Shown here one piece after another: positions 22,270-52,966 of a stretch of 64,000 bases of DNA (position 1 is its first letter; each line of letters begins with the position of its first letter). A program made the position numbers and the translations under genes. Below the pieces are notes generated by a model. That model was not told the DNA's origin. It did no database searches and worked only from the letters and a program-made list of their open reading frames with translations. The DNA is from Cirrosporium novae-zelandiae (taxonomy: Eukaryota), in the NCBI GenBank assembly GCA_026023565.1, contig JAPETS010000002.1:1302001-1366000 (forward strand), read 5' to 3'.

Positions 22270-25200
22270 TCATTGGTATTTCAAGAGCAGGTCAAACATG
22301 ACCTTGTTATCTTCACGATACGCATCGCCGTATTCTTTTGCAGTAGCCGCTCGACCAGAAGCAGTATCCCATTTTGAAGAAGATGAAAACGTAATCTCTT
22401 TATCGGTTCGTACCATTTGTTTCCTTGCGATGTCCAGGGCTGTTTGGCCGGAGCTATCCCCGGAATCTTTTATCCCCAACTCGAGGAGGACCGCTAGTTC
22501 GTCTACTGCTCGTCTGAGAGTCGTCAGGTGTAGTGGCGTATAACCATTCAGGTCTGAGGTTATGCTCGTTCCCTTCTTAAGCAGAAGCCGGATTATTCTT
22601 TTAACATCTTCTTTCCTGTACTTGCCGATAGAGCAGTGGAGGGCTGTTTGTTGTCTCCTATTTTTGGCGTTGGGGTTCGCGCCTCGCTCTAGGAGCAATT
22701 TTAAAATCCAGTAACTCCATCCTTTAGAGGCCGCTCGATGTAAAGCCGTATTTCCGTGCTTGTCGGTAGCATTGATATCTGCGCCATAATCTAATAATCC
22801 CTGTACTGTGCGTTCGGCATCAAGGGCGTCAGAAGATACTGCGGTTAGAAGTGGTGTTGATTCTATGCAATCTCTGGCTTCAATATCAGCCCCATGTAGC
22901 AGCAATAGCAACACAACTGTACTTTGGCCATGAGCTGCGGCTAGATGCAGAGCTGTTTCTCGGTGTCCATGAGTCCTAGACTCTAGAGGTGCTCCGGAGT
23001 TGATAAGTATTTTGACAGTCTCCTCATTCCCATGCTCTGACGCTCGATGCAATGCATTTGCACCACCTTCATCTAATTTTCCAATTATTGCATCTTGCTG
23101 GAACTGCTCCAAATATAGAGTTACTAACCCGTCTAACCCTAGGAATGCTGCTGCGGTAAATCCATCCCGTAGCCTTTGGCGAATAGTCTCTTTCGGGCTC
23201 ACCAGCAAACAAAGTCTATTGAATTCCCCGGATTGCGCTTTACATATCCGACGTACAGGATCGAGAAGTGTAGCTTTGTATTCAGACCCAGTCATTTGGT
23301 AATGAGTAGCCACATTCATGGCGGCATAGTCTAGAAATGCGTGCTTTAGCTTGCATTCTTTAATGAGACGAAGATTCATTTCTCCATATTTGAATTGATG
23401 TGTCTTGAAAGGGCCGGTCTGAAAGTCTGAGAATAACAGATAGGACACACAAGCCATTCCTAAGGTAAAGTGAGCTTTAGCAAGGCTGATCGACTTACAC
23501 CAAGATGTTGGGTTCGGAGAGGGATGTGCTATCATGATTGGCGATTGGGTGACTAGAAACTCTTTCGCAGTCTGGTGAATGAGATAAACCTTGGAATGAA
23601 TCACTCTTACAAAAAGATTGCAAAGAGCTTTCAGTGTACTGTCCATGTCTGGTTCAAGGTCCAGATCTTCGCTTGATAGATTCTCTGGCTGGATAGAGAA
23701 TGCAATATTTAGCTCCTCCACCGTCAATGGACGCGTTGCTGCTATAACAATATTTAAGATCCTCCTTGCATTCTTGATGTCTTTGCTTTGGCTCAGGATT
23801 TTGTCGTATACTTCCGCAAGGGTTGACGGGACCGTGGTGATTAAATTATTGAGAGTTTTTTCATTCGCTCTACCACTTTCTTCAATCAAACCAAGGACAA
23901 GATGCACCCAAAGAAAAGATCCATCAGAGGCCACATATAGGCTTCTTGCTAAGGATAACTGCCTTTCCCTAGGTAGCCGCTTAGAGCGGCCGATCCTTTT
24001 CACTTTATCTCTAATGAAAACGTCAACATCATGTTGTAGATGTGCAGTTTCATTTTCGGCTTGAAGCCTGATTATACCAAGACCAAGTTCTTCAAACTCT
24101 GTCTCGATTGATAGGTAAGGGCGACTAGTGATTAGGATCTTCAAGTGGTAAGACCTCGACGATTCTGGGGTTGAGAAAAGGAGAACCAATGCCTTGATAA
24201 GCTCCAGCCGGTCATCTTCTTTGCATTCATCCAGTCCATCAATCACAATGGTGAGATCATGGCTTCTAGAATCAGAAGCCACTGCTAGTAGGATATTCCA
24301 CAGACTGCTAAACTCAGTTGTAATTTTTTGCCCTTTCATTTGATATTCACCCATCACGTGTTTCAACAGTGTTATATCAAGGGTGAAAAGTTGGTGAAGC
24401 AAAGAACACAACGCCAGCGTTGCGCTATTCTGTTCGTCGTTGTCCTTAAAAAAGAAGTAGCAGACCTTCCTAGGACGGTGCGTTGTTTGAGCAGCTTTCA
24501 TTTCGTCGACAAGAAAAGAAGCTAAAACAGATTTCCCACATCCAGGATCAGCAGAAAACCAAAGAAGATTCGAATTTTCATCTTGTTGCCATTGTTGAAA
24601 GTTTTGATGGCTCAAGACCCACGTACAGGTGCCAGGCGTTGGTGTGGGATTCCTATTCTTTTGCGAATTATAATCACATCTGTACAATGTTCGCAGGCAA
24701 TCTTGCTCCAGTGGCGAGAGTTCGTGGGAATGAACAGTGTCTGATAATACAACTTTTCAGCCATGTTGACATAAGTGAGACTAAATTGGAAAATATGAAA
24801 CTGAGGAGGTTAATAACAACAGTAAAAGCAGACAATTGATATGAAGCACTAGATGCTATCTGCAGCCCCTTCCCCAAGTGACCGATAGACTGCTTGTAGT
24901 ATCACTAATAAAGCCGAGGTTGGGAAAAGAAAGTTGTGAATAGAGAAACTGTCGTTCCTGGTCGACTTTAAAGGGGAATCAGCGAAGTATAGATTTGCAT
25001 AATTTCTACCCGTCGAAAGTAGAGAAGAATAGTATTCGTACACAATATATGAAATCTTGCAGGTTATAGTTAAATGAAACATGTTTTGTTAGAAACATTT
25101 GCCGATAAGAATATGGAGCCGAAAGGGCTAGAAAGATAGATGGCATAGGATTGGAGTATAAAAACAACCGTACAAGTTTTGTTTCATACCTTTAGATGCT

Positions 25201-33463: not shown

Positions 33464-36182
33464 ATGACAAAATCCATTGCAGAGAGACCGCAGGAGGAGT
33501 TATCCTCAGAATGGTAAGGACCATTGCGATTACCCTGCAAGCCAACCAAATATCAACTAATATTTGTATGTATAGGAGTTTTGATGTTAAGGGTCTTGAT
33601 CTTTCAAAGCCAACCGTAAACCCAAAAATCCATCGAGCATGGGAGCGATTTCCAGCAGCATCCAATGTCCGGCGCCCATCCGGCCGCCTGGTTTGGAAAC
33701 GAGCCGGTTCTCATCTTCTACCTCCTCGAAGATCCAACAGGCGCCGTTCTCCACAATCAGGTGTTCAGGAAGGCGACAACGAGGGGCAAGTTATAAAACG
33801 GTTTCGCATTGACAGGGCGCAAAAGGGGCTAGGGTCGCGGAATGGAATGCTGCCATATGTTGGGACCATGGTCTCATTCCCCGAGCAATTGAAAGCTCGT
33901 AAGCGTCTTTTAGAACATTCCTCGAACATTAGAATATCGCAAACTAACCCTAATGCTGCGACATAGGCAAACGCCCTCATCGTGATATGGTACTGCAACC
34001 AAATTTCTCGCCACCTCCAAATGTTATATCAATGAACATTGAAGAGCCCGCGCCTGATGACGATGAAAGGGGCGAATTTGGAGCGACAAGTGCAAACCTG
34101 TCTGCATTTCAGCCCGAGGTTATAAACCTTGAAGAGACAATATTTCGTGATGAAAGTGGGCCGATTGTTAATACCATCCTCGAGCCTCTCAAAGAAAATT
34201 CCCCGCCATCAATTACATCCACAATAGCGCATAAAGAGGATGAACACCAGGGACAGAGGCCTGTTCCACCAACGCCCTTGGCGATAGCGCAAGAAGACCA
34301 AGATAGTGGCAAATATGAAGAAAATGTAAAGGTCAACTTTGCGATATCAGACCCTGTTATTCCAGGGAAGACAGAAAACGGATTTAGCAGACTTATTATC
34401 CAACCGCTAGCGGTTACTGAAAGAGATGGTGACGAAATGTTAAATGAAGAGCCGTCCAAAGAGCAATCTAACCCCGGCCATGCTTTATGTGATGCGAAGG
34501 TGGAAACCAATAAAGAGGAAGATCTATCTGCTTCCTTACCTGCCAATGATGAGTCTGCAAACAGTGAAATACACGAAACTGTTGACATACATCCACAAAC
34601 TCTGTCTAAGCCATCATCTATTATACAGGTCCCAAGTAGTCCTAGAAATAGGGTGAAGTCTCCTGATCTTGAAATGGCATCTGGATCACAGATTCTGTCG
34701 TCGGGTTCGGTGAAATCGGTCTTATTTACTGCGCCTGGAGAATCTACGGAGAGCTTGCAAGATCTAGAAACACCAGAAGCCGTGAACCAGAAAAAAACGA
34801 ATACTCGATCTGACAATGGCCGTGTCGAATCTAATGAAATTGCTTTACAAGGACCACAGCCATTCGTTTCTCACGATGATCAAGATGGAACGTGCACCGG
34901 CATCGTCAAACCTATTGCAGATCTCGACAATACTTTGGTGAACTTGCAATCTTCAGATTGCATACTAGGAGAAGAAAACTTATCAACGTTACATGATCCT
35001 TCATCTCCAGACCGGATTCCCCAGTCACCAGCTGCTGTTCTGCCTAAACTATCTACTATTTCATCTTCAATCATTTCAACAGTACCACGACCATTCGACA
35101 ACCTTACCAGTGAAGATGCGGACATGCTGAAGGATTTCCTACTGCAACACACAAAAGCACGAAAAACGGTGAATTTAGAATCTCCCATTAAAGTAGCAAA
35201 GCCTACATTGATTTCCACGCCTCCTCGTCGTATTCTTGGTCATATAGATCAAAATAGCCCTTCGCCTCGAAAGGAATTGCCCCTAATGCCCGATATTACG
35301 AAACCAGATATGAATGAAGTAGACAAGGAATCTCATATTCCCCATCCACCTGCTCCTGGACCTTTCCATGAGCAAGAAAATATCCCCACTCCGCACTCTC
35401 CTCGCCGTAGCACCCGAACACGCAAGCAAGTCCTTCCAAAATATTTCCCAGAACCCCCAACCCATATACCAATGCTTTGGAAGAGCCGTCACGAGAATAC
35501 CTCTGCAATAACGGATCAGACTGAAGCGCATCGATTAACCGTGCTTACCAAAGCAAATACCAGACACAACCGAGGAAAGTCGAAGCCACCACAACAGATG
35601 CTGAAGATATTGATCGCAGACACTTTACACGAGCAGCAGCTAGAGGAAAATGGAGAAGAAATTAAGGCAGCAGAGAAAGAAGGCTCCAAGAGTGTAACAT
35701 GGAAGGAGGAACTCGTGGAATTTGCAGAAGAACACGATCTAATATCACCATCAGAGTCCGAAACAGAAACAGAGGAGCCCGAGCCTGCAGCAGTGGAAAG
35801 GCCCAAAAGAAAAATGAAAAGACTCAAAGCTCAAGGATCGGTAAATGGGACACCTGCATCGAAGCAGAAGACCAAGACCAAGAAAAAAGGTCAAAGAAAG
35901 ATCAGTCCTGAATCTTCTACTGCCACTACATCTGCAACTAGTAGCACATCCTCTATAAAGAAAAGAAAGAAGTCAACGACAAAGAAACACAAAACTACCC
36001 CAGCCACGCTTACGCTCACGACGGCAGCGGCAGATGGTGATGGTGATGATGATGGCAATGAAGAGGGTGGAGAGGGCAGCACCGACTTGGTATCGGCATC
36101 TGGATCCGGGTCCGGATTGGGCAGTCCAATCAAGAAGAAAAGAAGGTCTCTGAGAAGCCATATTCCCGTGCATGTTTCATGA
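33464..36182 (+). CDS. Hypothetical, largely disordered acidic/Pro-rich protein with basic NLS-like C-terminus, about 862 aa, 3 exons
   Basis: Exons 33464-33513, 33576-33898, 33967-36182, joined by GTAAGG..CTAAT..TAG and GTAAGC..CTAAC..TAG introns with consistent frame. Conserved-looking patches 'IHRAWER..VWKR', 'DADMLKDFL', 'LTKANTRHNRG', 'KSVTW'. Confidence 0.75.
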
Positions 36183-40738: not shown

Positions 40739-41721
40739 CTATACAGAAACTCCACCGGAGAAGTATTTCTGATAGCCGAGGTAGAGTGCATATGAAGTGG
40801 CGGCTAAGGTGGTGCCAATAAGTATACCTCGAAGACCCGATTGCAACATCTGCATCCGGTTCCTTGTCTTGGTCCTTTGGACGAAACCATGGGCATCATT
40901 TGATCGTGGGAAATCGACACCAAATGGAATAGGTTCTCCCAGGAATTTGCACAATGGCTCCCATCCGTCGCTAATGTTGTATTCAAGAAGGTTCTCGGGC
41001 TTGACCATCTTACGAACCTCGGCATAATGTTCTTGGAAGCACTCCTTGCCCTTGTTTGGGAAGTCGCCCTTGAAGAAGGTATCGAACATCTTCTTCAACA
41101 TTGGATAATACATGCCGGCTCCCCAGGAAAAGTGGTGAACAATTCGGAATTCAGGGTCCATCACTCGCCAGTAAACAGTCTTCATGACAGACTTGTGCCA
41201 TGAATCTACATCTCTGGTTGTAATGATAATCTTAGCTTCAGGGTATGCCTCAATTAATTCAGGAGCAAAGGCACAGGCTGGCCAATCACAAACAGCCTGT
41301 AGATATGGATTAGCAACGTGTTCAAGCATCAGAATATAGATCATCATACCTGACAATGACCAAGAAGCTGGTCCCACTGTTCTCGTCCCCATTCACCCTT
41401 TCCATCATACTTGGCAGCGAATGCATCGGACCACATTAAGCAATCTGGGGGATTTTCGACGCTAGCACACATCATGTGGTATGTGTCCTGGTATCCCAGA
41501 CGTTTCAAGGCAGCTCGTAATGCTTAAATAAGGTTAGTACAAATAGAAATATGCTAGAAGGCTGTATACGAACAAACAGTGCCAGTTCTTCCCATTCCCA
41601 GAGCCAACACCTTCATGGGTACTTCTCGTTTACATTGTCGTCGATCAATGCTGGTATCTTCGGTGAAGACATCAGTGATGGGTTTTGGGGTATAAGTGTC
41701 TCTGAAGTTGGTAGACGACAT
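40739..41721 (-). CDS. PAPS-dependent sulfotransferase-like P-loop protein (Sulfotransfer_4 / Cpz8-like family) with C-terminal membrane anchor, 292 aa, 3 exons
   Basis: Exons 41721-41574, 41522-41350, 41296-40739. Motifs 'MKVLALGMGRTGTVSLRAALKRLGYQDTYHM', 'AVCDWP', 'ELIEAYPEAKIIITTRDVDSWHKS', 'HYAEVR...NLLEYNISDGWEPLCKFLG..P..FPRSND'; hydrophobic tail. Confidence 0.85.
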
Positions 41722-43973
41722 GGTGACAGAGATTGAAATGAATGGATGATTTTTCCTATCGATTGTAGAATTTGACTTTTGATCAGAAAATGAAGGTCGA
41801 GCTGTCGATTTAAATAGACAGTATTATTCGAGCGAGTGGAATAACGAGGCAAAGCAGTTGTACAAGCTCTCAGAGATTGCAAACGACCACTTTTCCTACA
41901 GATAGCTGATGAGGAATAATTAAAGGGCGGGCACGGAGGATAGTAGACTTAAAACAATTAAAGGATTTGGAAATGGCAGGAAGCTGTTGGTCTCATATCT
42001 GATATAGGAAGGCGGGACGATCCCAGATAATAAAAGTGGATTAGGAAAAAGGGGGATCGGATATTTGACTTGTGGGGCCTGCATTAGAATCAGCATTGAA
42101 TAGGGAATAGGCGGTATGGGAACGCGCAACGATTAACCAACGCTCTACCACAGTACCAGTGACAGTTAGTGATAGTTACCAGTGACAGCCAGTGAGCAGT
42201 CAATGTCACCGGTGTGCTATCGAGAGTGCGAGTGTGCGACCGAGTTTCCTACCGGCCGATTCGCAGTTGCGTCCCTGTTTTGACTTTGGCTGTGCACAAG
42301 ATTGGCAAGCACCGTTGCTCTCCAAGGCCTTGAAAGTCTTGGCATTCGTCGTCGATCTCTCTAAATTTGTCTATTTTTTTTCATGTTTTACGCGTACATG
42401 GAACCATGAAAGATTACTTGAGTAGTTTTGGTTGCCATGGAGGGGGGCACTGGGGAGTTACTAGGCGCAACTAGGCCATTTAAGTCTACCTAGGGCGTAC
42501 CTCTCGAGAGGGGTAACGCAACGAACTTGAGATGTGTACCTGACCCGACCAAAGGTAAGTAGGTGCATTTGTTATGAACGATAACAAAAGAAATAAACAT
42601 TATTGACAAAAACAACAATCGAGGCGAATCAAGATAACGCCACTCAGAGTTCTTGATTCTTGGTTATTTATGATAGTAGCAGATTGAGAGGCATCTTACA
42701 CCATAGCCACCTGTAAAAATAAATAATAAACAGGATTTTGATATGAGAGGTTGAATGTCGGACAGTCTCCAAGAGCACCGCCCTCCCCCTCTCACCCCCC
42801 TCTCACCCCCCCCCTCTCCCGAACTCTCTTTCTCAAAAATCGAAACTTTCAAATTCTCGTGCTGCAATGCCAAGACCACTTTGACTTTACTTTATTTGTA
42901 GGAAAGGAAAAGATAGTCGCTGGCTTCTTCCGCTTCGGTGGATCCATGGCCTATGCGATAAACAACAAAGGAAAAAAGGAAAGAAAAGAAAAAGAACATC
43001 AGCCTTGTCAATAGACCCAGTAAGGTGGCTGACGCCACAAAAGTAGAAATCTAGAAGCCTGTATTTGAGAAGAATTTTCGTATTCGAAACATGGTAGAAA
43101 ACCTAACTGACTGCTCACAGTTACTTCTACTAATTAGGTATCTCTTGGAGCACAACTCATGTCAGGTGTAGAGTGGATGATAATCTTTCCAAGGCGGTAA
43201 ATTAGGCTGATACCTGTTGCTGATGAGTATTCGGCTTTCCAATCACCTCAACACATTGATTGTACTGTATGAAAAAGACCCTGAAACCAGAAATCGGTGG
43301 AACCTCTTCTCGGGTACCATAAGGAAAGGCTTTGGACTACTGTTTGGAATGCAAGTCTTGGCATTCACGGCATTCTTCCCCAAGGAGCCGACGGCGAGGA
43401 TGAACGAGAACTACTCCGGTTCTTCTCCGTCATTGGAAGCAATATGGAATACATGGAATACTTTGGTGTTCCCCAATGGAACACATTTGTACCAAGTAGT
43501 TAATCAGACCAAAGGTGAAATCCATCAAATCTTGACTTCCGCCTTGGCGTCTGGAGAAATTTGATTTATTCGGTGGAGGATTTGATCCTATAGGAAACGT
43601 CAAAATCTATTCTCGCCTTGGAAACTGAGCGGACTAACAGATCCTAAGGCTCTTGGCATTCAAGGGTTCTGGGCGTTGGTTGATGTTGGTTGTGGATAGT
43701 TGTGGATAGTTGCGGAATAGCTGTGGAACTCGTGTACTTGGTAATCCCCTCCTCCCTTCCTGCAAGGGTACCAAATAAGGCAGAAAAGGGAAAGGGCCAT
43801 TGCTTAATGTTACAAAAAATAAAAAAAAAACCATTGGAGAGAATGGCCAACTATAGCAATCCTGTGAAGAACTCACACTGTCCATCTATCGCCGACCTGT
43901 CCAACTGCCTTTCTATGCTTCCAACGCCTTCACCTTGTTCATTTCTACCTTTGGAGAACTTCATGATAACTTC

Positions 43974-45956
43974 ATGAGGACTCATCAACCGGCCTGGCTC
44001 TTTGGGGTCTTGGCCATTGTCGCTACTACTCTCAACCTTTTTGTCGTCAATGTCTGCGCCGATAACGTCACCAATCCCGTATCCATCTATTACTCGGTAG
44101 GCCTTCAGCTTTCCCACTTAAAAGGCTTGGCTGGTACTGATACTTATTTGCGCTTATTCTTTATAGAGACCAGATCTATTTGCTGCCCCGATCTTGACAG
44201 TCGTTCAGAAGGAGGAAGATGTCAGCCCCGGCTACTATTTCGTGACACCCTATCAAGCCGATAACCCTGGACCATATATATACGATAGTGACGGGGTATG
44301 GATTTAACTTGTCCTTACTGTGACAATTGGCGTGGAGCTTGTTTTGCTAATATCTTGGTCAATCTCTAGAATCTCGTATGGAGCGGATTTGGAAACTCAG
44401 GTCCTGCTGTTGCACATAATCTACAGGTGTGCGAATATGAAGGAACCGATCACCTCTGTTTCTTCCAGGGGAACCAGATGCTGGGCTATGGCAGAGGACA
44501 TGGTGTGATAATGGACAATCAATATCGCATTGTCAAATCCGTTCAACCTGGAGGAGGAATGGCTGGAAGTGATATGCACGAATTTCGCCTCATTGAGGGT
44601 GGCAAACGGGCTCTTTTAACCGTCTATCAACAACGCCCCTATGACCTAACGGCCTACAACATCAAAACCGGAACTGGTTGGATCTTTGATTGTGTATTTC
44701 AAGAAATCAACGTTAGTACCGGTGAGGTCGTATTCGAATGGCATTCCTTGGATCACATTCATCCGAAAGAAAGCTACGTCCTGCCTGCCACTACCGAAAC
44801 ATCTGGCAATGGTCTCATTCCCAACAGCCCATGGGATTACTTTCACATCAATTCTATTGATAAGAACGCAGACGAAGACTACATAATTTCTGCTCGCCAT
44901 GTTTCGGCAGTTTACAAGATCTCGGGGAAAGATGGATCCGTGCTTTGGCGGCTGAATGGGGCTAAAAGCTCCTTCAGGATGGTCAATTTCGAAAACGAGT
45001 ACAGCTTTTCTCATCAGCACGATGCCCGTTTTGTCAAAGAAACCGAAACTACGACCGTCATTTCCCTATTCAATAATGGAAGTAACGGGAAGAACGAAAC
45101 AGTACCAAACTCAACAGGTCAAATTATTGTCCTTGATCATGTGGCAAATACTGCAACTCTAGTCAAATCCTATGGCGCCCCCGACGGGGGGATGTTATCA
45201 GCTAGTCAGGGCAATATGCAGATTCTCGATGATGGCCATGTGGTGATTGGCTGGGGCGTCCATGCATTCCTCTCTGAACATCGCGAGGACGGAACCCCAG
45301 TTTTCTGGGCTTATCTCGCTACATTCGGAGTCATGCATTATCGTGCTTTTAAATTCCAATGGGATGCGAGTCCTGTTGATATACCAGCGATATTCTCTTA
45401 TGCGCAAAACTCGAACGGTAGAACCTTCTTTTACGCTTCCTGGAATGGAGCAACACGAGTCAAAGCCTGGCGCTTCTACACTTCAGCTGCTCATACGGGT
45501 CCCTTCAAGCTCCTCAAAGAGGTCCCTAAGAAGGGCTTTGAAACAGTGTACTCCAATCATGGTTTTCATGGGTGGGCATTTGTTGAAGCTGTGGCTGAGG
45601 ACGGTACAGGTATAGCCAACTCATCCATTGGCATAACATATGTACCGTCCCCTGAGCTGGAACCATACTGCACCAATGCGCATTGTCCACTGGCTCAGGG
45701 CTTTGGCTTCCCCGAAGACAATCCAGACGGGGACAAACAAGAAAATCCCGCTCCGGATGATCAGCAGGAGGAAGCAGAACCAGAAGAACAGGAACAGCAG
45801 ACTCAGGCCGAAGCCTTTGCTGCAGAGGAAGAATTCAGTGCATGGAAATGGGTATGGAAACTAACTTTCCTAATGGCCTTAATTGGAGGCGTTTACTATT
45901 TGGTCAGAAGATATCCTGAAAGGTTCGCATCACCATCACCATTACAATTTCCATGA
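43974..45956 (+). CDS. Arylsulfotransferase (ASST) family protein, signal peptide plus C-terminal TM helix, 612 aa, 3 exons
   Basis: Exons 43974-44096, 44167-44295, 44370-45956. 'SRPDL', 'GPYIYDSDGNLVWSG'; catalytic-type motifs 'DMHEF', 'WDYFHINSIDK', 'IISARH', 'FSHQHDARF', 'SQGNMQIL', 'YASWNGAT'. Confidence 0.9.
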
Positions 45957-48329
45957 TTTCGCGTATGCATGTCGCACAGATTGCTTATATTTTTTATGGA
46001 ATTAAAAGGAGCCGGGTTTTACGGTGGTATGTACATCGTATGCAACTCCCGCGGTGGAGATCATGAATCAAGTCCATTTTTTTGGAGTGAACTTGGGGTT
46101 AGGAGTTACCGGAAACACGGGACGATGTACGAGGGGAATACCCATAGAGGAGAGATACAGAGACGGCCTATTTATTGACCATGGTCGCTCAAATAGACAT
46201 TTCCTTTTGAAGTCGGGTCTGGCCTACCTTCAATAATGACTTGATAGTGGCAGAGGTTTGAAACGGAAGGTCATCGGAGGCCTGGTCAGCCAGGTGCAAG
46301 GGTGGTGGTTAGTTAGAAATGAAGCATAATGGACCGCAGCATCAGAGGCGTGACAGACGAGTACGGGCAAGCGAGTACGGACAGGACAAACTCGAAGAAG
46401 ATGATGGGAAGGCTTGAATGTGTTACAGTTTTAAACTAAATTGTAGATCCAGCCGTCAAACGGTCTCGGGTGGATGAGCTGGCGACAGAATGCGACCTGT
46501 GCCCGGTCAGGGATTTAACTGATGGATTTTGTTGTGGTGCTAATGGAATTGTTTGGGCATTACCAGATTGCGATACGGGTACGGGTACGGGTTCAGATAC
46601 GGGGGATACAGTATAGCGGACTGTAAATGTGAAGAGATTGTTGTGTATTATTACTCTGTGTAACTCATGGTTGAATAAAAGGAGGCTTTCTAGAAAAAAG
46701 ATGGTCGATTCAATTGTCGGACGGGAAATTAGGTGAAGCAGAAAAGGTGAGAAAAACCAAAAATACCATCCATCTCCTTTTTTTAAAGGAAAAAAAAGAA
46801 TAAGCAGCAGATAATCATGTTCTGATGCAGCTTGGTTTCTCCATGTAATCGTCGTCAGTAGGATTCGTAGGAGCTAGATTAGGGAGTCTTGGCAGAAGGC
46901 CGAAGAAGGCCCTTGGGTCTTGGCATTTTCACGGGATTGGCTCAATGGAGGAATTAGAGGCACACGAGACTGATCCCCGACTGTCCGAGGGGCCGTAATT
47001 GTTTTGGGTGGGGAGGGCGTCGCAATCAAAAGGAGAGAAAGAAGGCATTCGTCGGCATTTCGGCATTTTTCAATTACAGGATAACATTAATTAATTACAT
47101 ATTACATTCATTTTCTTTTGACTGTCGTCGTTTTGTGATGTAGTTCCTGGTATTCGAAGGTTTTTTTTTTTTTTTTTTTCTCTAACAAGCTCCTTGATGT
47201 TGTCGGTCAGTGGCGTTGTTTAAACTTTTATAAGTGAAAGGAAAAAAATCACAAGGCTTACAAGGCTTTTTCACCCATCTGTTGTATGCTTTTTATCTTT
47301 TCAATCTATTTAGACCAATTGAGTTCAGCATAGTTTCCGAAATAGGATATGATAGCGAAAATAGAGAAGGATAGATAGGTTGGTGAGGTTGGTGGTGGTG
47401 GCTTGAGAGGAGGAAGTCTGAGGTCTGCGGTCAATGTTGCATAACTACTAACTTATAACCTTCATAGTTTGATGTAAGCGAGAGACCAGAGACGACTTAA
47501 CCACTTAACTTAACAGGAGCAGTCACAAAAAATCCCACCCCCAAGTACGTACTTGGAGTCGGAAAAGGTAACTAACTGAACTGCTGGTAATTAATCAAAA
47601 TCGATGGAGCTGCTTCCTCCTCTATCTTTGCCAAGAGTTTGGCAACGTCAGACAAAATTGGGGAGATGCTCCCACGGCTCCCTAGAACATGGCTAGGACC
47701 ATGCCTTAGTCCTCCACTGCCCGTATTGTCCGTTTACCGTCGAATACGTCTCCCACCTTGAGCCTCGTTGATGAGTACTACTGTTGAGTGTTTATTCTAT
47801 TCCCCCCAGTTTGTTGCTATTCTCCTCGACATTTCCAATTTGATAAGGCCGGCTCTTGTCCATATCAAGCCTACCTACCATAGTACCTCTCTCCAGTGAA
47901 CCAAGCCTTTCCAAGACTTATAGAATACTTCTTCGGCATATTGATATCCGGTTGTTGTCTCCCTTTGCTTGGAAAAAAAAACACGGTGCTACCCCATTCA
48001 TTACACCAGACCAAGTGAAAATCCTACACAAGTACATACCCTTACTCTATCCATTCTTACTCCTAATACCAATTATTAATCCCTGTGACCTGACAGAAAC
48101 CTCCCACCTTGATCAATTCGGTCCATTCGGCTCCATCTGTACATCCTATCGCTGCGCACATTTCCCTTTACCATCTTCCGTCGCCGTACTACTTTCATGA
48201 GCATCCACCCTTCCGTCTGACTTTATCCGGCTTCATCTACTTTACGTCCACTCCTCCACCCAGGTCGCTCCGAATTATTCCACTATCATTCTTCCAATCG
48301 AATCCTTTCAGTCGTGGCCATAACTGGCC

Positions 48330-50411
48330 ATGAACCCCTCGGCGAATGAAGGCGGAACAAGCTCAGCCCCTCATCGAACACACGCACGCACCACATCAAT
48401 TGATATGAAAAACATCTTGAACGGTGAAAAGCCAAACGCCAGAAAAAGAGAATCAGTATCATCAATGAGAGCCTATCTGGATGATATATCATCTGATGGC
48501 GACCAGGAACGAAAGCAGGAAAGAGATCAGGATAGAGATAGAGAGGTGGCAGCCGCGTCGATTTCAATGCCGATCCCAAATATTCAAAAACCAGCTCCGG
48601 TAACATGGATGTCACTACCAAAAAAAGGACAGCTGATCTTACTGGGGCTGTCTCGCGTTTTCGATTTTTTGCAAGTTGCCTCGTTACAGGCGTTTATGTT
48701 CTACCAGCTCAAGTCTTTTGACCCGGGATTATCAGACTCGATGGTCTCTTCACAGGCGGGCCTTTTACAAGGAGCTTTTACAGCAGCGCAATTTGCGACT
48801 GCGATCCCATGGGGAAGAGTTGCAGATGCTAGTTGGGGAGGAAGAAAAAGGGTGCTGCTCATTGGGTTGGTTGGAACTTCTATATCGTGTATTGGACTTG
48901 GATTTTCGACCACCTTTGCTCAAGCGATATTCTGGCGGGTATTGGGAGGAGCAATTAATGGGACCGTTGGTATCATCAGAACGATGATTGCTGAAAATGT
49001 CAAAGAGAAGAAATTTCAATCTCGTGCCTTTTTGATATTGCCACTAAGCTTCAACATCGCCAATTTCTTCGGTCCAGGTATGATCTTGAACAATATACCA
49101 TACCTGATAAATACTGACGTTTAATCAAATATAGTGATGGGTGGATTGTTGGCAGATCCTGTTCAAACTTATCCCAAAATCTTTGGTGCCGGCGGAAGTT
49201 ATGGGGGGCAATCCGGTGTTCAGTGGATGATGGCCTTTCCATATGCGCTTCCAAGTCTCTTGAATACCCTTTTCTTGGGGTGTACCGCAGTTTGTGTTTT
49301 CCTTGGATTGGAAGAGGTATGTCAAGCTTTGCACTATTGGTCTGCACTGCTAACTAGTCATAGACTTTGGAAATCCGCAAGCACAAATTTGATGCCGGAC
49401 TTTACGTGAAATCTCGACTCAAGCGTTTCGTAATGAGTGTATGGATGTTTGTTACGCGGAAATCCTCCAGCTATAGGAAGCTTTCTCTCCAAGATGAAGA
49501 TGATTATAGCTACCCACCTAGCAATGCCTCAAACAGCGTTGAGAGCTTAGAGCTGCTCGAAAAGGAAAAGAAACCGCCGAAGCGTCATCACCACAGTGGC
49601 AAATTGTCATTCCGGCGCATCTGGATACCCAATGTTATTTTTACCCTGATCGCCGAGGCATTTTTTGATTTCCACATGGGGTAAGTCGAAATAGACGTTT
49701 GAGAAATGGCATCATTGAACTAACGCCTATGCTAGTGCCTTTCAAAACCTATGGCTTCTCTTTCTCTCTACTCCACGATATGACTCCACAAATCCCACCT
49801 TTGCTAATCTTACACGTCATCTTCCTTTCCTCTTCACAGGCGGTCTTGGCATGCCTCCCAAAAGCGTTGGTCTTGCGACTGCAGTTTTGGGGTTGATTGG
49901 CATGACCCTACAACTATCAGTCTACCCTGTCATTCAAGGACGACTTGGAACCGTAAAGAGTTATCAATGGTCCCTCATGATTTTCCCCTTTGCCTACTTT
50001 ATCGCGCCATATCTCGCCCTTGTGCATTCTAGTTCGCCTCCTCCCGCAGAAGCTACAGGCTTCTGGATCTGGTTCTTTATTGTGGTCGTTCTATTCCTAC
50101 ACGTGGCTGCTCGAACCTTTGCTTTACCCGCTTCCATCATTCTACTCAACAACTGCTCACCTCATCCTTCGGTCCTTGGTACCATACATGGCATCGGTCA
50201 ATCGGTTACTTCGCTTTTCCGTACATTAGGTCCTATCATCGGGGGTATCTGGTACGGGCAGGGGCTGGAAAATGGTGTCGTCGGCACTGCCTGGTGGGCT
50301 TGCAGTGCCGTTGCAACCGTTGGTTGCGGTACAGCCATGCTGGTTTATGAAGGCTCTGGCCATGAAATAATATTAGACGGGGAAGAGGAAGAGGAAGAGG
50401 AAGATATGTGA
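48330..50411 (+). CDS. MFS transporter (MFS_1; YCR023C/ZIFL-like), 640 aa, 4 exons
   Basis: Exons 48330-49077, 49135-49316, 49364-49680, 49736-50411. Motifs 'IPWGRVADASWGGRKRVLLIGL', 'GAINGTVGIIRTMIAE', 'QSRAFLILP', 'ILLNNCSPHPSVLGTIHGIGQSVTSLFRTLGP'. Confidence 0.92.
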
Positions 50412-51404
50412 TGAACGACAAAAAAAGTTTTAATGAGTGGTTTGAGCAAATTTTTGTTGGTTATTCGTCCGTTGTTGGAAGCGTATCTCTGGATTGTTGC
50501 ATATATACCAGGGGGACCGGTGCATTGCTTTGGCGTTTTATGGACTAGATGAGTGCATATGGGCATTTGTTGGGCGTGTAAGATGTGCCTCATTCAGGAG
50601 TTTGGGGTTTATGTATATCATTTCCCCCTAGGTTTCTGTATTTATCGGAAACCATGAATACTTTGTCTTCATTCAGGCGCCCATCTATTGTTTTTTTCTT
50701 GTGTTGAAACAGCCGATCTGAAACCAATGTGGGAAACCCTGGTGGTTGAGCTCGTGTGTGTACAACACGTTCTTTATCTATTTTACTATCTTTTAGTATC
50801 GATTCTTGATGTGAATATTTTCCTTGATGATTTTGGATCTCTAAAAGAGAGGAAAGACGGATACGGAGCTTAAAGGGAGCTTGAAGGTAGGGGATATTTG
50901 ATTAGGGGTTCACGTTAAGTGACTATTATAGGTCTCTAATTGGTATAATCAATCAATCACTTGTCTCTACCGAAGCAATCATTTTTAGTAAAATCAAGTT
51001 TTGTCAAGAAAGGGTTACAGGAAAGGTTTCACAAAATAGGATTTGCGGTTTTGGTTTCGGTCTGATAAGGCCTCGGCTCCTATGAAATGGCAAGGGATTT
51101 GGCTGATTCTTATCAACAGCTCCCCGCCTCGCTCGCCTCCGCGTCTTTGAACCTTTTGAAAGGAACAAATACACGTAATACTGTTAACAATTGCTATTGG
51201 AATCACCACAAATCCGGTCTTGCCGCTATCGTGAATCAACAAGGAACTTAATTGTTATATATTTTCTTCTACATTTTGCTAATCAATGTAGGATCTTCAC
51301 AACACAATCTGCAGCCACAAGCATCGCATCTCTACTCATTCCTAGTAGTTGTCTAAATTGACATCAGAGCAACAACAAAGAACTTTCTAGTCAACTAATA
51401 TACC

Positions 51405-52966
51405 ATGGCAGCCGCAGTAGCCACTCCTCTCTCTTCCGAGTCCATCGCCGCTCATGACTATCTCAAAGCTCGCCTAGCCTCCCACCCCGCCTCCAGTATC
51501 AACTCATCCTCTTTCCAAATCCCCGTCATCGACATATCCCCATCCTACTCCAACTCCATTGCCGATCGCCAAGCTGTAGCCTCTCAAATTCGCTCGGCCT
51601 GTCTCAACAGCGGCTTCTTTCAAATTGTAAACCATGGCATCGATCAGCAAGCCTGCGATGGGATTCTAGAGCAAGCAAGACGGTTCTTTCATGAACTACC
51701 TATAGAGAAGAGGGAAAAACTCCATATTAAATACTCGGGATTCTTTCGCGGATGGGAACCTGCCGATTCCACGAGTCTATATGCTGACGAGGGGGAGGAG
51801 GGAGCTGGGGGGGAGACCAAAGATGGGTTCAATTGGGGGTACGAAGAACGGCTAGATCCCACGGGTGGGGATGGAAAGTATGTTGAGGTGGATGGAAGTC
51901 AAGGAAACAAGAATGTTTGGCCAAAGGAGGAGGATCTTCCTGGATTCTTCGAGGGAATAAAGGAGTATTATAGTAAGGTAAGTAAATATTACTATTTTTA
52001 TTCTCTTTTATCCTGTCAATGGGCATGACCCACGATTTGGAAACTTGAACTCTCTTGCTTGACTACTGTTCATTATTTATTCTTATCAACCTACTTTGAT
52101 GGGTATAAATGAATACGATTAGACCTAAAGGTATAATTAGAAAAGTGATCTTGGGGAGGCCTTCAAATTGAATTTCTACTAAAAACTGGTTTTATTTGAA
52201 GATCTCCTAAGGTCACTTTTCTGGTTCTGCCTTTGGACCTGGTCACTTTCATTTCTACTTATCGAAAATACTATCCCATTCCATCCTTGTCCTTGGAATT
52301 ACCCAATCTCTAACAGCACCTCAGGCTCTTCAGCTAGCCCGCCACCTTTTCCGGGTTTTTGCTCTCGCTCTCAATCTTCCCGAATCCTACTTTGATTCTA
52401 AAATGACGCATCCCGGTGGAATCGCACGCCTAATTCACTATCCCCCACAAGTCCCTCAACAAGAAACCACCAAAGAAATTGGTCTTAACGCTCATAGCGA
52501 CTATGAGTGCTTCACCATCCTACTCTGCTCCTCTGCCCCTGGATTGGAAGTCTTATCTCCGACAAACGAATGGGTCAGCGTGGTGCCTGCAAAGGGAGCC
52601 CTTGTTGTCAATGTGGCGGACTTTTTGATGAGGTGGACAAATGGACAGTTCAAGAGTACGGTGCATAGGGTTGTAAGTAAGACGGAAAGGGAACGGTATT
52701 CTGTTCCATTATTTTTCAGTATCAATTATGACGAGAAGATTGAGGTAAGTTTGAAACCCCTTTTCTCCTTTTCCCCTCCCGTTTATAGGCGTTGTACTTT
52801 GATGCTGGGGTAACGAAATCGATATTACCTTGTGCATATGTTTTCTAATACTTGACTATTTCAGACACTTCCAAGTTGCACCTCAGATGACAACCCTTCG
52901 AAATACCCCCCCATCACTGCCGGCCAATACGTGTTGGATCGGCTAAGGGCTACGCTAAAGGAGTGA
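51405..52966 (+). CDS. 2-oxoglutarate/Fe(II)-dependent dioxygenase (IPNS/DIOX_N type), 364 aa, 3 exons
   Basis: Exons 51405-51977, 52325-52744, 52865-52966. 'IPVIDIS', 'ACLNSGFFQIVNHGI', HxD 'AHSDYE', distal His 'STVHRV', 2OG-binding 'RYS'. Confidence 0.92.
52092..52270. mobile_element. Foldback MITE (about 175 bp, TA-flanked) in intron 1 of the dioxygenase gene
   Basis: Left arm TA|CTTTGATGGGTATAAATGAA...AAAAGTGATCTTGGGGAGGCCTTCAAA and right arm TTTGAAGATCTCCTAAGGTCACTTTT...TTCATTTCTACTTATCGAAAA|TA are imperfect inverted repeats of about 75 bp. Both align to 17109-17185. Confidence 0.75.

What the first reader, a model, noticed from the sequence alone, without database searches (positions are those of the whole stretch)
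40739..52966. Candidate fungal two-step sulfate-relay locus: PAPS-type sulfotransferase head-to-head with an arylsulfotransferase, followed by an MFS transporter and a 2OG dioxygenase
Seen: two unrelated sulfuryl-transfer families share a 2.25-kb divergent intergenic region. The sulfotransferase-like protein has no signal peptide and a C-terminal anchor, so it probably faces the cytosol. The ASST has a signal peptide, a C-terminal TM helix and intact His/Asn/Arg motifs, so it probably faces the lumen or cell exterior. Established: in Streptomyces caprazamycin biosynthesis, PAPS-dependent Cpz8 sulfates a small shuttle molecule that PAPS-independent ASST Cpz4 then uses as donor. Inference: this locus could be a compartmentalised eukaryotic version. 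The sulfotransferase would load a phenolic shuttle from PAPS, the MFS would export it, the ASST would pass sulfate to an external or secretory acceptor, and the dioxygenase might supply a hydroxyl. No backbone synthase is present in the window, intergenic gaps are long, and both families are common in fungi, so chance adjacency is possible.
Basis: partly seen in the sequence, partly recalled or inferred. Interest (0 to 1): 0.72.

Follow-up and report, generated by a model that had tools for sequence, protein, structure and literature searches.

The report
Conserved fungal sulfate-relay gene trio
Three neighbouring genes (a cytosol-facing sulfotransferase, a membrane exporter and an outward-facing sulfate-transfer enzyme) stay linked, as a trio or a pair, across several classes of filamentous fungi; the two enzymes closely resemble a bacterial two-step sulfation pair, so these moulds probably pass sulfate across a membrane on a small carrier molecule, though no activity has been measured.

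Summary
The four genes are real and intact. Three form a conserved module: a PF17784 sulfotransferase (SULT), a membrane-anchored PF14269 arylsulfotransferase (ASST) and an efflux-type MFS. The 2OG dioxygenase does not belong to it.

The predicted folds match the caprazamycin relay pair best: SULT to Cpz8 (Z 24.4), ASST to Cpz4 (Z 47.0), with catalytic motifs intact. Of 21 metagenome loci of the SULT orthologue with at least 7 kb downstream, 21 carry the MFS and 20 an ASST (one decayed). None of 73 carries the dioxygenase or other flanking genes. Accession adjacency and these loci place the linkage in six fungal classes. Gene order varies, and one lineage has put a different ASST paralogue in the slot (AU p 9e-7). 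Some actinobacteria show the same design with an unrelated MFS fused to ASST.

Best reading (0.55): SULT loads an aryl carrier from PAPS, the MFS moves it out of the cytosol, and ASST sulfates a lumenal or external acceptor. Against: many Sordariomycetes and some Onygenales keep SULT+MFS without an adjacent ASST; no carrier synthase was found; carrier and acceptor are unknown. Ten literature searches found no description.

The parts
40739..41721 (-). Cpz8-like PAPS-type sulfotransferase (PF17784), 292 aa; exons 41721-41574, 41522-41350, 41296-40739; 5'-phosphosulfate loop R45-T46-G47-T48, D111-W-P, R135/S143; long C-terminal helix 245-286
41722..43973 (.). 2252-bp divergent intergenic region; no CYS-3-type site; head-to-head layout is uncommon among related loci
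43974..45956 (+). Cpz4-like arylsulfate sulfotransferase (PF14269), 612 aa; exons 43974-44096, 44167-44295, 44370-45956; signal-like N-terminus, catalytic propeller (H154, H243, N245, R260, H301), acidic stalk, C-terminal membrane helix, 16-aa tail
48330..50411 (+). Efflux-type MFS transporter, 640 aa; exons 48330-49077, 49135-49316, 49364-49680, 49736-50411; nearest solved relatives MFSD10 and NorA (weak); antiporter-type GPxxGG motif
51405..52966 (+). 2OG-Fe(II) dioxygenase (DIOX_N + 2OG-FeII_Oxy), 364 aa, intact; a bystander, not part of the conserved module

Best explanation
A three-gene, two-step sulfation relay that spans a membrane. Step 1 (inferred from fold and motifs): the cytosol-facing, probably membrane-associated Cpz8-like SULT uses PAPS to sulfate a small phenol- or enol-type carrier made elsewhere in metabolism. 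Step 2 (inferred from transporter family): the MFS moves the charged carrier-sulfate out of the cytosol into a secretory or endosomal lumen, or out of the cell. Step 3 (inferred from fold, motifs and topology): the type-I membrane Cpz4-like ASST takes the sulfuryl group onto H301 and passes it to an acceptor on that side (a sugar hydroxyl, a phenol or a tyrosine), so PAPS never has to cross the membrane. Shown here: gene models, families, folds, motifs, conserved linkage, and transcription of the three orthologues in one relative. Not shown: any activity, the carrier, the acceptor, the compartment.
For: Folds: the SULT model's best match is Cpz8 (9KF2, Z 24.4, rmsd 2.3, 209 aligned, 31%), near-tied with 9KF1 and SgdX2; unrelated sulfotransferases score 8.5 or less. 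The ASST model's best match is Cpz4 (9KF6, Z 47.0, rmsd 2.1, 442 aligned, 32%) against E. coli ASST at 28.9. Cpz4's DLH, HINS, SGR and QHD motifs align with H154, H243/N245, R260 and H301. Linkage: 21 of 21 loci with at least 7 kb downstream hold the MFS and 20 of 21 an ASST; after merging near-identical loci, 13 of 15 groups hold an intact trio, 1 a decayed ASST and 1 none. Order and strand vary. A Cadophora-like locus holds an ASST of another clade in the slot (49% to an unlinked paralogue of the window's genome, 32% to the window's; AU p 9.4e-7). Topology: 75 of 80 full-length ASSTs have a C-terminal membrane segment, and 67 of those 75 tails carry YxxPhi against 25.8 in shuffles. MFS GPxxGG motif in 104 of 111. 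Separate spliced RNA contigs for all three genes in 3 of 4 runs laid on an Aureobasidium-like locus. Bacterial parallel: L107 holds MFS::ASST fusion, type III PKS, PF17784 and a second ASST; L162 holds PF17784 followed by MFS::ASST. The bacterial MFS shows no pairwise similarity to the fungal one.
Against: SULT and MFS are direct neighbours with no gene between them in Fusarium solani complex species, Neonectria, Geosmithia, Paramyrothecium, a Xylariomycetidae genome, Blastomyces silverae, Emergomyces and Helicocarpus; an ASST on the far side cannot be excluded from accession numbers. L044 has 10 kb on each side and no ASST, and L031's ASST is decayed. L013 (6.8 kb downstream) and L068 (4.4 kb) show neither partner, though both have under 0.7 kb upstream. 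No type III PKS was detected in the genome or in any fungal locus, so there is no Cpz6 counterpart. The window's own ASST tail lacks YxxPhi and its SULT anchor is weak. Only 48 of 80 ASST models pass my N-terminal hydrophobicity cut. RNA contigs show presence, not co-regulation. Only 5 of 80 bacterial ASST loci have a PF17784 gene within 8 kb.
Confidence: 0.55

Rival explanations
1. Conjugate-and-export or conjugate-and-store module. SULT sulfates a metabolite or xenobiotic and the MFS removes it to the vacuole or the medium; the sulfated compound is the end product. ASST is an optional partner that recycles or hydrolyses it.
For: SULT+MFS is the most constant pair (21 of 21 versus 20 of 21; direct adjacency). 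PMC7690957 (passages) notes fungi that sulfate zearalenone yet lack FgSULT1-like enzymes. The A. oryzae PAPS-independent enzyme also hydrolyses its donor (PMC13426309 passages). No PF00685 sulfotransferase was detected in this genome.
Against: A dispensable accessory would not be expected to be replaced by a different paralogue in the same slot. Bacterial MFS::ASST fusions couple export to external transfer. The SULT's conservation (59-68% identity to the window protein across 41 orthologues) suits a fixed endogenous substrate.
Confidence: 0.25
2. Membrane-lipid or lipid-droplet function. The SULT sulfates a lipophilic substrate at the ER or droplet surface, and the partners handle that sulfolipid.
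For: Two A. oryzae PF17784 proteins, LdrG and LdrH, are lipid-droplet associated; LdrG binds through predicted amphipathic helices, and a double deletion could not be obtained (bioRxiv 10.1101/2022.11.24.517872, passages and section 5). The SULT ends in a long, moderately hydrophobic helix.
Against: I could not tell whether LdrG or LdrH is this orthologue (no gene ids in the passages I read; supplements closed). The genome has three other PF17784 loci at about 32-34% identity in their longest matched segments. Published ASST donors are mostly aryl sulfates (PMC13426309 table), so an alkyl or sterol sulfate is a poor fit (inference).
Confidence: 0.08
3. Reverse relay for sulfur scavenging. External ASST moves sulfate from environmental aryl sulfates onto a carrier, the MFS imports it, and the SULT runs backwards to make PAPS from PAP.
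For: Some PAPS-dependent sulfotransferases regenerate PAPS from PAP and an aryl sulfate (PMC13426309 passages).
Against: The MFS resembles efflux antiporters. There is no enrichment of CYS-3-type sites: 4 in 137,708 bp over 15 loci against about 2.1 expected, and the window's only site lies inside the MFS gene. The N. crassa sulfur-starvation paper names no sulfotransferase in its text or in 4 held supplements (weak, as orthologues may be unnamed). The genome already has many sulfatase-family matches.
Confidence: 0.07
4. Chance or passive synteny, with no shared pathway.
For: Both enzyme families are multi-copy in the genome, and intergenic gaps are about 2.3 kb.
Against: The linkage persists across six classes, while no other window gene appears in 73 loci except a generic 31% sugar-transporter hit. 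No other neighbour recurs in more than about four closely related groups among the 45 largest ORF clusters printed. Inversions keep the genes together.
Confidence: 0.02

Closest known systems
Cpz6/Cpz8/Cpz4 two-step sulfation in caprazamycin biosynthesis (Streptomyces sp. MK730-62F2; PDB 9KF1/9KF2, 9KF4/9KF6)
   Same: Same two enzyme families and best fold matches. PAPS-dependent loading of a carrier followed by PAPS-independent transfer, as described in PMC6731281 (passages).
   Different: Eukaryotic, intron-containing genes. ASST is a type-I membrane protein and SULT has a C-terminal helix. A linked exporter is present. No type III PKS was detected nearby or in the genome. There is no antibiotic backbone cluster in the window or in the fungal loci as far as scanned; it behaves like a vertically inherited module.
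E. coli periplasmic arylsulfate sulfotransferase AssT (PDB 3ELQ)
   Same: Beta-propeller fold (Z 28.9), extracytoplasmic location, and a His/His/Asn/Arg/His site like that listed in PMC13426309 (passages).
   Different: Much more distant (20% identity). The residue-to-residue mapping to AssT numbering is my inference from motif order, not a printed alignment.
PF17784 sulfotransferases SgdX2 (8Y9P) and schistosome oxamniquine-activating SULT (4MUA)
   Same: Same family and fold (Z 22.8 and about 20-21; E 9e-35 and 2.5e-25).
   Different: No paired ASST is known to me for these (recalled). The fungal protein adds an N-terminal extension and a C-terminal helix.
Characterised fungal SULTs FgSULT1, HwSULT, AsSULT
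   Same: Fungal PAPS-dependent phenol sulfotransferases; one Hortaea homologue lies beside an MFS (PMC7690957 passages).
   Different: The PMC11677658 survey was built on PF00685, a different family not detected in this genome. FgSULT1 loci are reported as non-syntenic.
A. oryzae 'arylsulfatase II' phenol sulfotransferase activity (1975-77, as reviewed in PMC13426309)
   Same: A PAPS-independent aryl sulfotransferase activity in a fungus whose genus carries the trio.
   Different: No gene is named in the passages I read. Which ASST paralogue, if any, gives that activity is unknown.

Membership tests
PF17784 (Cpz8 / SgdX2 / schistosome-type) sulfotransferases | Profile match over the curated cut-off and same fold | tested here: met
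   162 bits against a cut-off of 22.8; Z 24.4 to Cpz8
PF17784 (Cpz8 / SgdX2 / schistosome-type) sulfotransferases | PAPS-binding motifs (GxxRTGT loop; R...S 3'-phosphate motif) | tested here: met
   G44-R45-T46-G47-T48, R135 and S143 invariant in 42 of 42; the loop aligns with Cpz8 and SgdX2. Motif roles are recalled and also described in PMC11677658.
PF17784 (Cpz8 / SgdX2 / schistosome-type) sulfotransferases | PAPS-dependent sulfation of a phenol or enol | not testable with these tools
   needs an enzyme assay
Cpz4-type arylsulfate sulfotransferases (PF14269) | Profile match and propeller fold | tested here: met
   195.9 bits against a cut-off of 27; Z 47.0 to Cpz4
Cpz4-type arylsulfate sulfotransferases (PF14269) | His/His/Asn/Arg/His active-site set | tested here: met
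   H154, H243, N245, R260, H301 invariant in 46 of 46 and aligned with Cpz4
Cpz4-type arylsulfate sulfotransferases (PF14269) | PAPS-independent transfer from an aryl sulfate | not testable with these tools
   needs an assay with p-nitrophenyl or methylumbelliferyl sulfate
Caprazamycin-type Cpz6/Cpz8/Cpz4 system | Linked Cpz8-like and Cpz4-like genes | tested here: met
Caprazamycin-type Cpz6/Cpz8/Cpz4 system | Linked type III PKS that makes the carrier | tested here: not met
   none in the window scan, none in the fungal loci, none detected genome-wide (exon-wise search, so genome-wide absence is not proven)
Caprazamycin-type Cpz6/Cpz8/Cpz4 system | ASST uses the SULT's product as donor | not testable with these tools
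   needs a coupled assay
Drug:H+ antiporter-like MFS (MFSD10 / NorA / TetA-like) | Nearest relatives and GPxxGG antiporter motif | tested here: inconclusive
   MFSD10 E 1e-4 and NorA E 2e-3; TetA-type models best but below their cut-offs; motif in 104 of 111 (motif meaning recalled). Direction of transport not measured.
CYS-3/MetR sulfur-starvation regulon | ATGRYRYCAT-type sites in promoters | tested here: not met
   4 sites in 137,708 bp against about 2.1 expected; none in the window's intergenic regions; motif as in PMC8550094

The most novel reading that the evidence does not exclude
Filamentous ascomycetes sulfate macromolecules in the secretory pathway (wall or secreted glycans, glycolipids, protein tyrosines) without importing PAPS. 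They use a recyclable small aryl-sulfate carrier made by the SULT, pumped across by the MFS, and discharged by Golgi- or endosome-resident ASSTs, with the several unlinked ASST paralogues drawing on the same carrier pool. This would be a second eukaryotic solution to lumenal sulfation, and it would explain why SULT+MFS stay linked while ASSTs are exchangeable.
Probability: 0.25. Interest if true: 0.92.

Novelty: new variant of a known kind. Interest (0 to 1): 0.76.

Why it matters
Fungi make sulfated metabolites and polysaccharides, but the enzymes are largely unassigned (PMC11677658 and PMC11625862, passages). A PAPS-independent sulfotransferase activity has been known in A. oryzae since the 1970s. 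This trio gives named, deletable genes in laboratory aspergilli and penicillia, and a concrete mechanism to test. It is easy to miss: public records label the SULT 'NAD dependent epimerase/dehydratase' or 'P-loop hydrolase', and often merge the ASST and MFS into one model. If the relay holds, it shows sulfation across a eukaryotic membrane without a PAPS transporter, and offers a native fungal system for biocatalytic sulfation.

Tried and rejected
- Dioxygenase as a member: no hit in 73 loci at E 1e-5 or 1e-2, although 10 of 14 locus groups extend at least 2 kb past the MFS and the window's gene starts 993 bp past it. Its nearest solved relatives are generic 2OG oxygenases.
- Head-to-head layout as the conserved feature: seen in only one other locus, L057, with a distant ASST.
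- True ASST-MFS fusion in Aspergillus: 23 merged models have variable junctions, one species has both merged and separate models, and RNA contigs are separate in an Aureobasidium-like locus. I treat them as annotation merges; Aspergillus RNA was not tested.
- Choline sulfotransferase identity: considered from recall; the search and one review gave nothing to test it.
- Absence of a Golgi PAPS transporter: four UAA-family loci cannot be told apart. PF03567 rang nowhere, controls included. PF13469 gave one sub-cut-off hit inside a PF17784 locus. Inconclusive.
- Gene-id literature searches: 0 papers. One listing matched A. fumigatus ids that I estimated from recall; it was not read. The YCR023C/MFSD10 search gave nothing relevant.
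- My MFS motif-A pattern was too strict (15 of 111) and is not used.
- Row P0520 in the MFS tree belongs to an ASST cluster despite its label and should be ignored.
- The ASST tree is the quick tree; the careful search did not finish.
- Run X8 behaved like DNA (no clean splice joints) and is not counted as expression.
- Earlier-findings look-ups by sequence and place were empty. The Atlas search added nothing beyond PF17784.
- No complex was predicted, so physical binding among the three proteins is untested and not claimed.

Full report
Observation. The window is fungal DNA with spliceosomal introns. Splicing at GT..AG sites gives four open frames: a 292-aa PF17784 sulfotransferase (SULT, 41721..40739, minus), a 612-aa PF14269 arylsulfotransferase (ASST, 43974..45956), a 640-aa MFS (48330..50411) and a 364-aa 2OG dioxygenase (51405..52966). 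Public proteins identical over the queried exons have the same three lengths and consecutive locus tags; their source label is Cirrosporium novae-zelandiae, class Xylobotryomycetes in NCBI taxonomy. The start codons of SULT and ASST are 2252 bp apart. The genome holds 4 PF17784 loci and 9 PF14269 loci (lower bounds), and only this pair is adjacent.

What the proteins are. The SULT model (pLDDT 90) matches Cpz8 best (9KF2, Z 24.4, rmsd 2.3, 209 residues, 31%), nearly tied with 9KF1 and SgdX2. Schistosome enzymes follow at about 20-21, and all other sulfotransferases score 8.5 or less. Its PAPS-binding residues are invariant in 42 of 42 aligned orthologues. None of 82 full-length orthologues has a hydrophobic N-terminus and 74 have a hydrophobic C-terminal segment; the window's own is weak, KD19 1.19. 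The ASST model (pLDDT 86) matches Cpz4 (9KF6, Z 47.0, rmsd 2.1, 442 residues, 32%), well above E. coli ASST at 28.9. H154, H243, N245, R260 and H301 are invariant in 46 of 46 and align with Cpz4. Of 120 hits, 80 look full length; 75 of those have a C-terminal membrane segment and 48 pass my N-terminal hydrophobicity cut. Of the 75 tails, 67 hold YxxPhi, against a mean of 25.8 and a maximum of 37 in 500 shuffles. These sequences are related, many Eurotiales, so they are not independent, and the window's own 16-residue tail lacks the motif. That YxxPhi is a sorting signal is recalled. The MFS is weakly nearest to MFSD10, NorA and TetA-type exporters and has the GPxxGG motif in 104 of 111 relatives.

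Linkage, unbiased test. A scan of metagenome contigs with the SULT alignment returned 73 loci; 32 show ASST and 24 the MFS, most of the rest being short. Of the 21 with at least 7 kb downstream, 21 hold the MFS and 20 an ASST. Merged into 15 groups of near-identical loci, 13 have an intact trio, L031 has a decayed ASST and L044 has none. At a 3.5-kb threshold, 18 of 20 groups hold at least one partner; L013 and L068 hold neither but have under 0.7 kb upstream. The groups are not all independent: several are close Dothideomycete or Penicillium relatives. No locus holds the dioxygenase, F-box, DOCK or other window genes, apart from a generic 31% sugar-transporter hit. The common layout is tandem SULT>ASST>MFS; the window inverts SULT, L020 inverts ASST, and L027 and L031 invert the MFS.

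Linkage, named genomes (accession or locus-tag adjacency; pairs were picked by matching species or contig length, so this shows range, not frequency). SULT and ASST lie within two numbers in Sarea resinae, Rasamsonia byssochlamydoides, Arachnomyces, Aspergillus affinis, A. melleus, A. terreus, Paecilomyces variotii and P. lecythidis. ASST and MFS are adjacent in A. nanangensis, A. fumigatus, A. mulundensis and three penicillia, and 23 Aspergillus models merge them. SULT and MFS are direct neighbours in Blastomyces silverae, Emergomyces, Helicocarpus, Neonectria, Fusarium solani complex species, Geosmithia, Paramyrothecium and a Xylariomycetidae genome; they lie two to five numbers apart in A. 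wentii, P. herquei, Cosmosporella, Lachnellula and Purpureocillium. Together this spans six NCBI classes: Xylobotryomycetes, Sareomycetes, Eurotiomycetes, Dothideomycetes (L009, near-identical to Aureobasidium pullulans), Leotiomycetes (L020, Cadophora-like) and Sordariomycetes.

History. Clustered ASSTs from the window, Sarea, Onygenales, Eurotiales, Chaetothyriales-like and Dothideomycete loci form one group (support 93, quick tree) apart from the genome's eight unlinked paralogues. The MFS proteins group by class. Both fit vertical descent. The exception is informative: the intact ASST between SULT and MFS in L020 is 49% identical to an unlinked paralogue of the window's genome and 32% to the window's ASST, and a tree forcing it into the clustered group is rejected (p-AU 9.4e-7). 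I named that group after seeing the tree, so the p-value is not from a blind test. A different ASST has filled the same slot, which points to selection for the function rather than passive synteny.

Expression. On the Aureobasidium-like locus, three of four runs (X5, X10, X12, three studies; X5 is only guessed to be RNA) gave spliced contigs for each of the three genes, with no listed contig joining ASST and MFS. This shows transcription in a relative, not co-regulation, and nothing was laid on the window itself. CYS-3-type sites are not enriched.

Bacterial parallel. Of 80 kept bacterial loci (of 264) with the nearest ASSTs, nearly all actinobacterial, 5 have a PF17784 gene within 8 kb. Fifteen have an ASST frame preceded by at least 8 predicted membrane segments; 5 of 5 checked are MFS::ASST fusions. 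I looked for these after earlier scan notes mentioned them. L107 carries the fusion, a type III PKS, PF17784 and a second ASST; L090 carries ASST, PF17784 and the PKS; L162 has PF17784 directly upstream of the fusion. The bacterial MFS shows no pairwise similarity to the fungal one, so the same design seems to have been assembled twice.

Mechanism. In the known system Cpz8 sulfates a triketide pyrone from PAPS and Cpz4 passes the sulfate to a sugar of caprazamycin (PMC6731281, passages; PMC13426309, passages; the primary paper was seen only as a reference). The fungal anatomy puts the Cpz8-like enzyme in the cytosol, where PAPS is made (established knowledge), the Cpz4-like enzyme on the far side of a membrane, and an exporter between them. 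I therefore favour a trans-membrane relay (0.55). The main rival is conjugation and export with ASST as an accessory (0.25), supported by the lineages that keep SULT+MFS without an adjacent ASST. Those lineages may instead use unlinked ASSTs, which I could not test. No type III PKS was detected, so the carrier must come from elsewhere. It works like Cpz8/Cpz4 but is not a member of that three-gene system.

Novelty. Ten full-text searches found no description of this cluster; the library lacks most subscription papers. Passages read: PMC7690957 and PMC11677658 treat other fungal SULTs; PMC12142624 only cites Cpz genes; PMC11625862 calls fungal sulfotransferase classification unresolved; PMC13426309 records the old A. 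oryzae activity; PMC8550094 (with 4 supplements), PMC4669086, PMC5857272 and PMC11576661 gave nothing on it. bioRxiv 10.1101/2022.11.24.517872 places two PF17784 proteins on lipid droplets; its closed supplements may say whether either is this orthologue. Verdict: a real, conserved, apparently undescribed fungal module and a new variant of a known bacterial chemistry, with the mechanism inferred and directly testable.

Noticed in passing
L107:1988-9368 (also L090:7866-11920, L162:2256-9362): Actinobacterial loci combining a Cpz8-like SULT with ASST genes; L107 adds an MFS::ASST fusion and a type III PKS, L090 a type III PKS, L162 an MFS::ASST fusion. No antibiotic backbone genes among the neighbours scanned.
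   Followed up: partly
P0252-P0303 (23 Aspergillus models): ASST+MFS merged models, probably annotation merges. A real fusion would be topologically possible, since the ASST tail and the MFS N-terminus should both be cytosolic; Aspergillus RNA was not checked.
   Followed up: partly
L020:11700-13400: Cadophora-like locus with an ASST of a different paralogue clade inserted, inverted, between SULT and MFS.
   Followed up: yes
L031:13473-14202: Short, decayed ASST remnant beside an intact SULT and MFS, lacking catalytic motifs.
   Followed up: partly
window 45923-46170: The ASST tail is unusually short and lacks YxxPhi; a possible splice donor before the stop could give a longer tail. No RNA for this genome was examined.
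   Followed up: partly
G000:C63:887471-889218 (L165): Close paralogue of the MFS (46-59% by segment) with no SULT or ASST hit in the 10 kb fetched.
   Followed up: partly
P0121-P0240: The SULT family is widely labelled 'NAD dependent epimerase/dehydratase' or 'P-loop hydrolase' in public records.
   Followed up: no
window 33954-36182: 742-aa stop-to-stop frame with no Pfam match.
   Followed up: no
window 22270-24756: NACHT/NPHP3_N plus ankyrin-repeat gene, the architecture of a fungal NLR-like protein (interpretation recalled).
   Followed up: no
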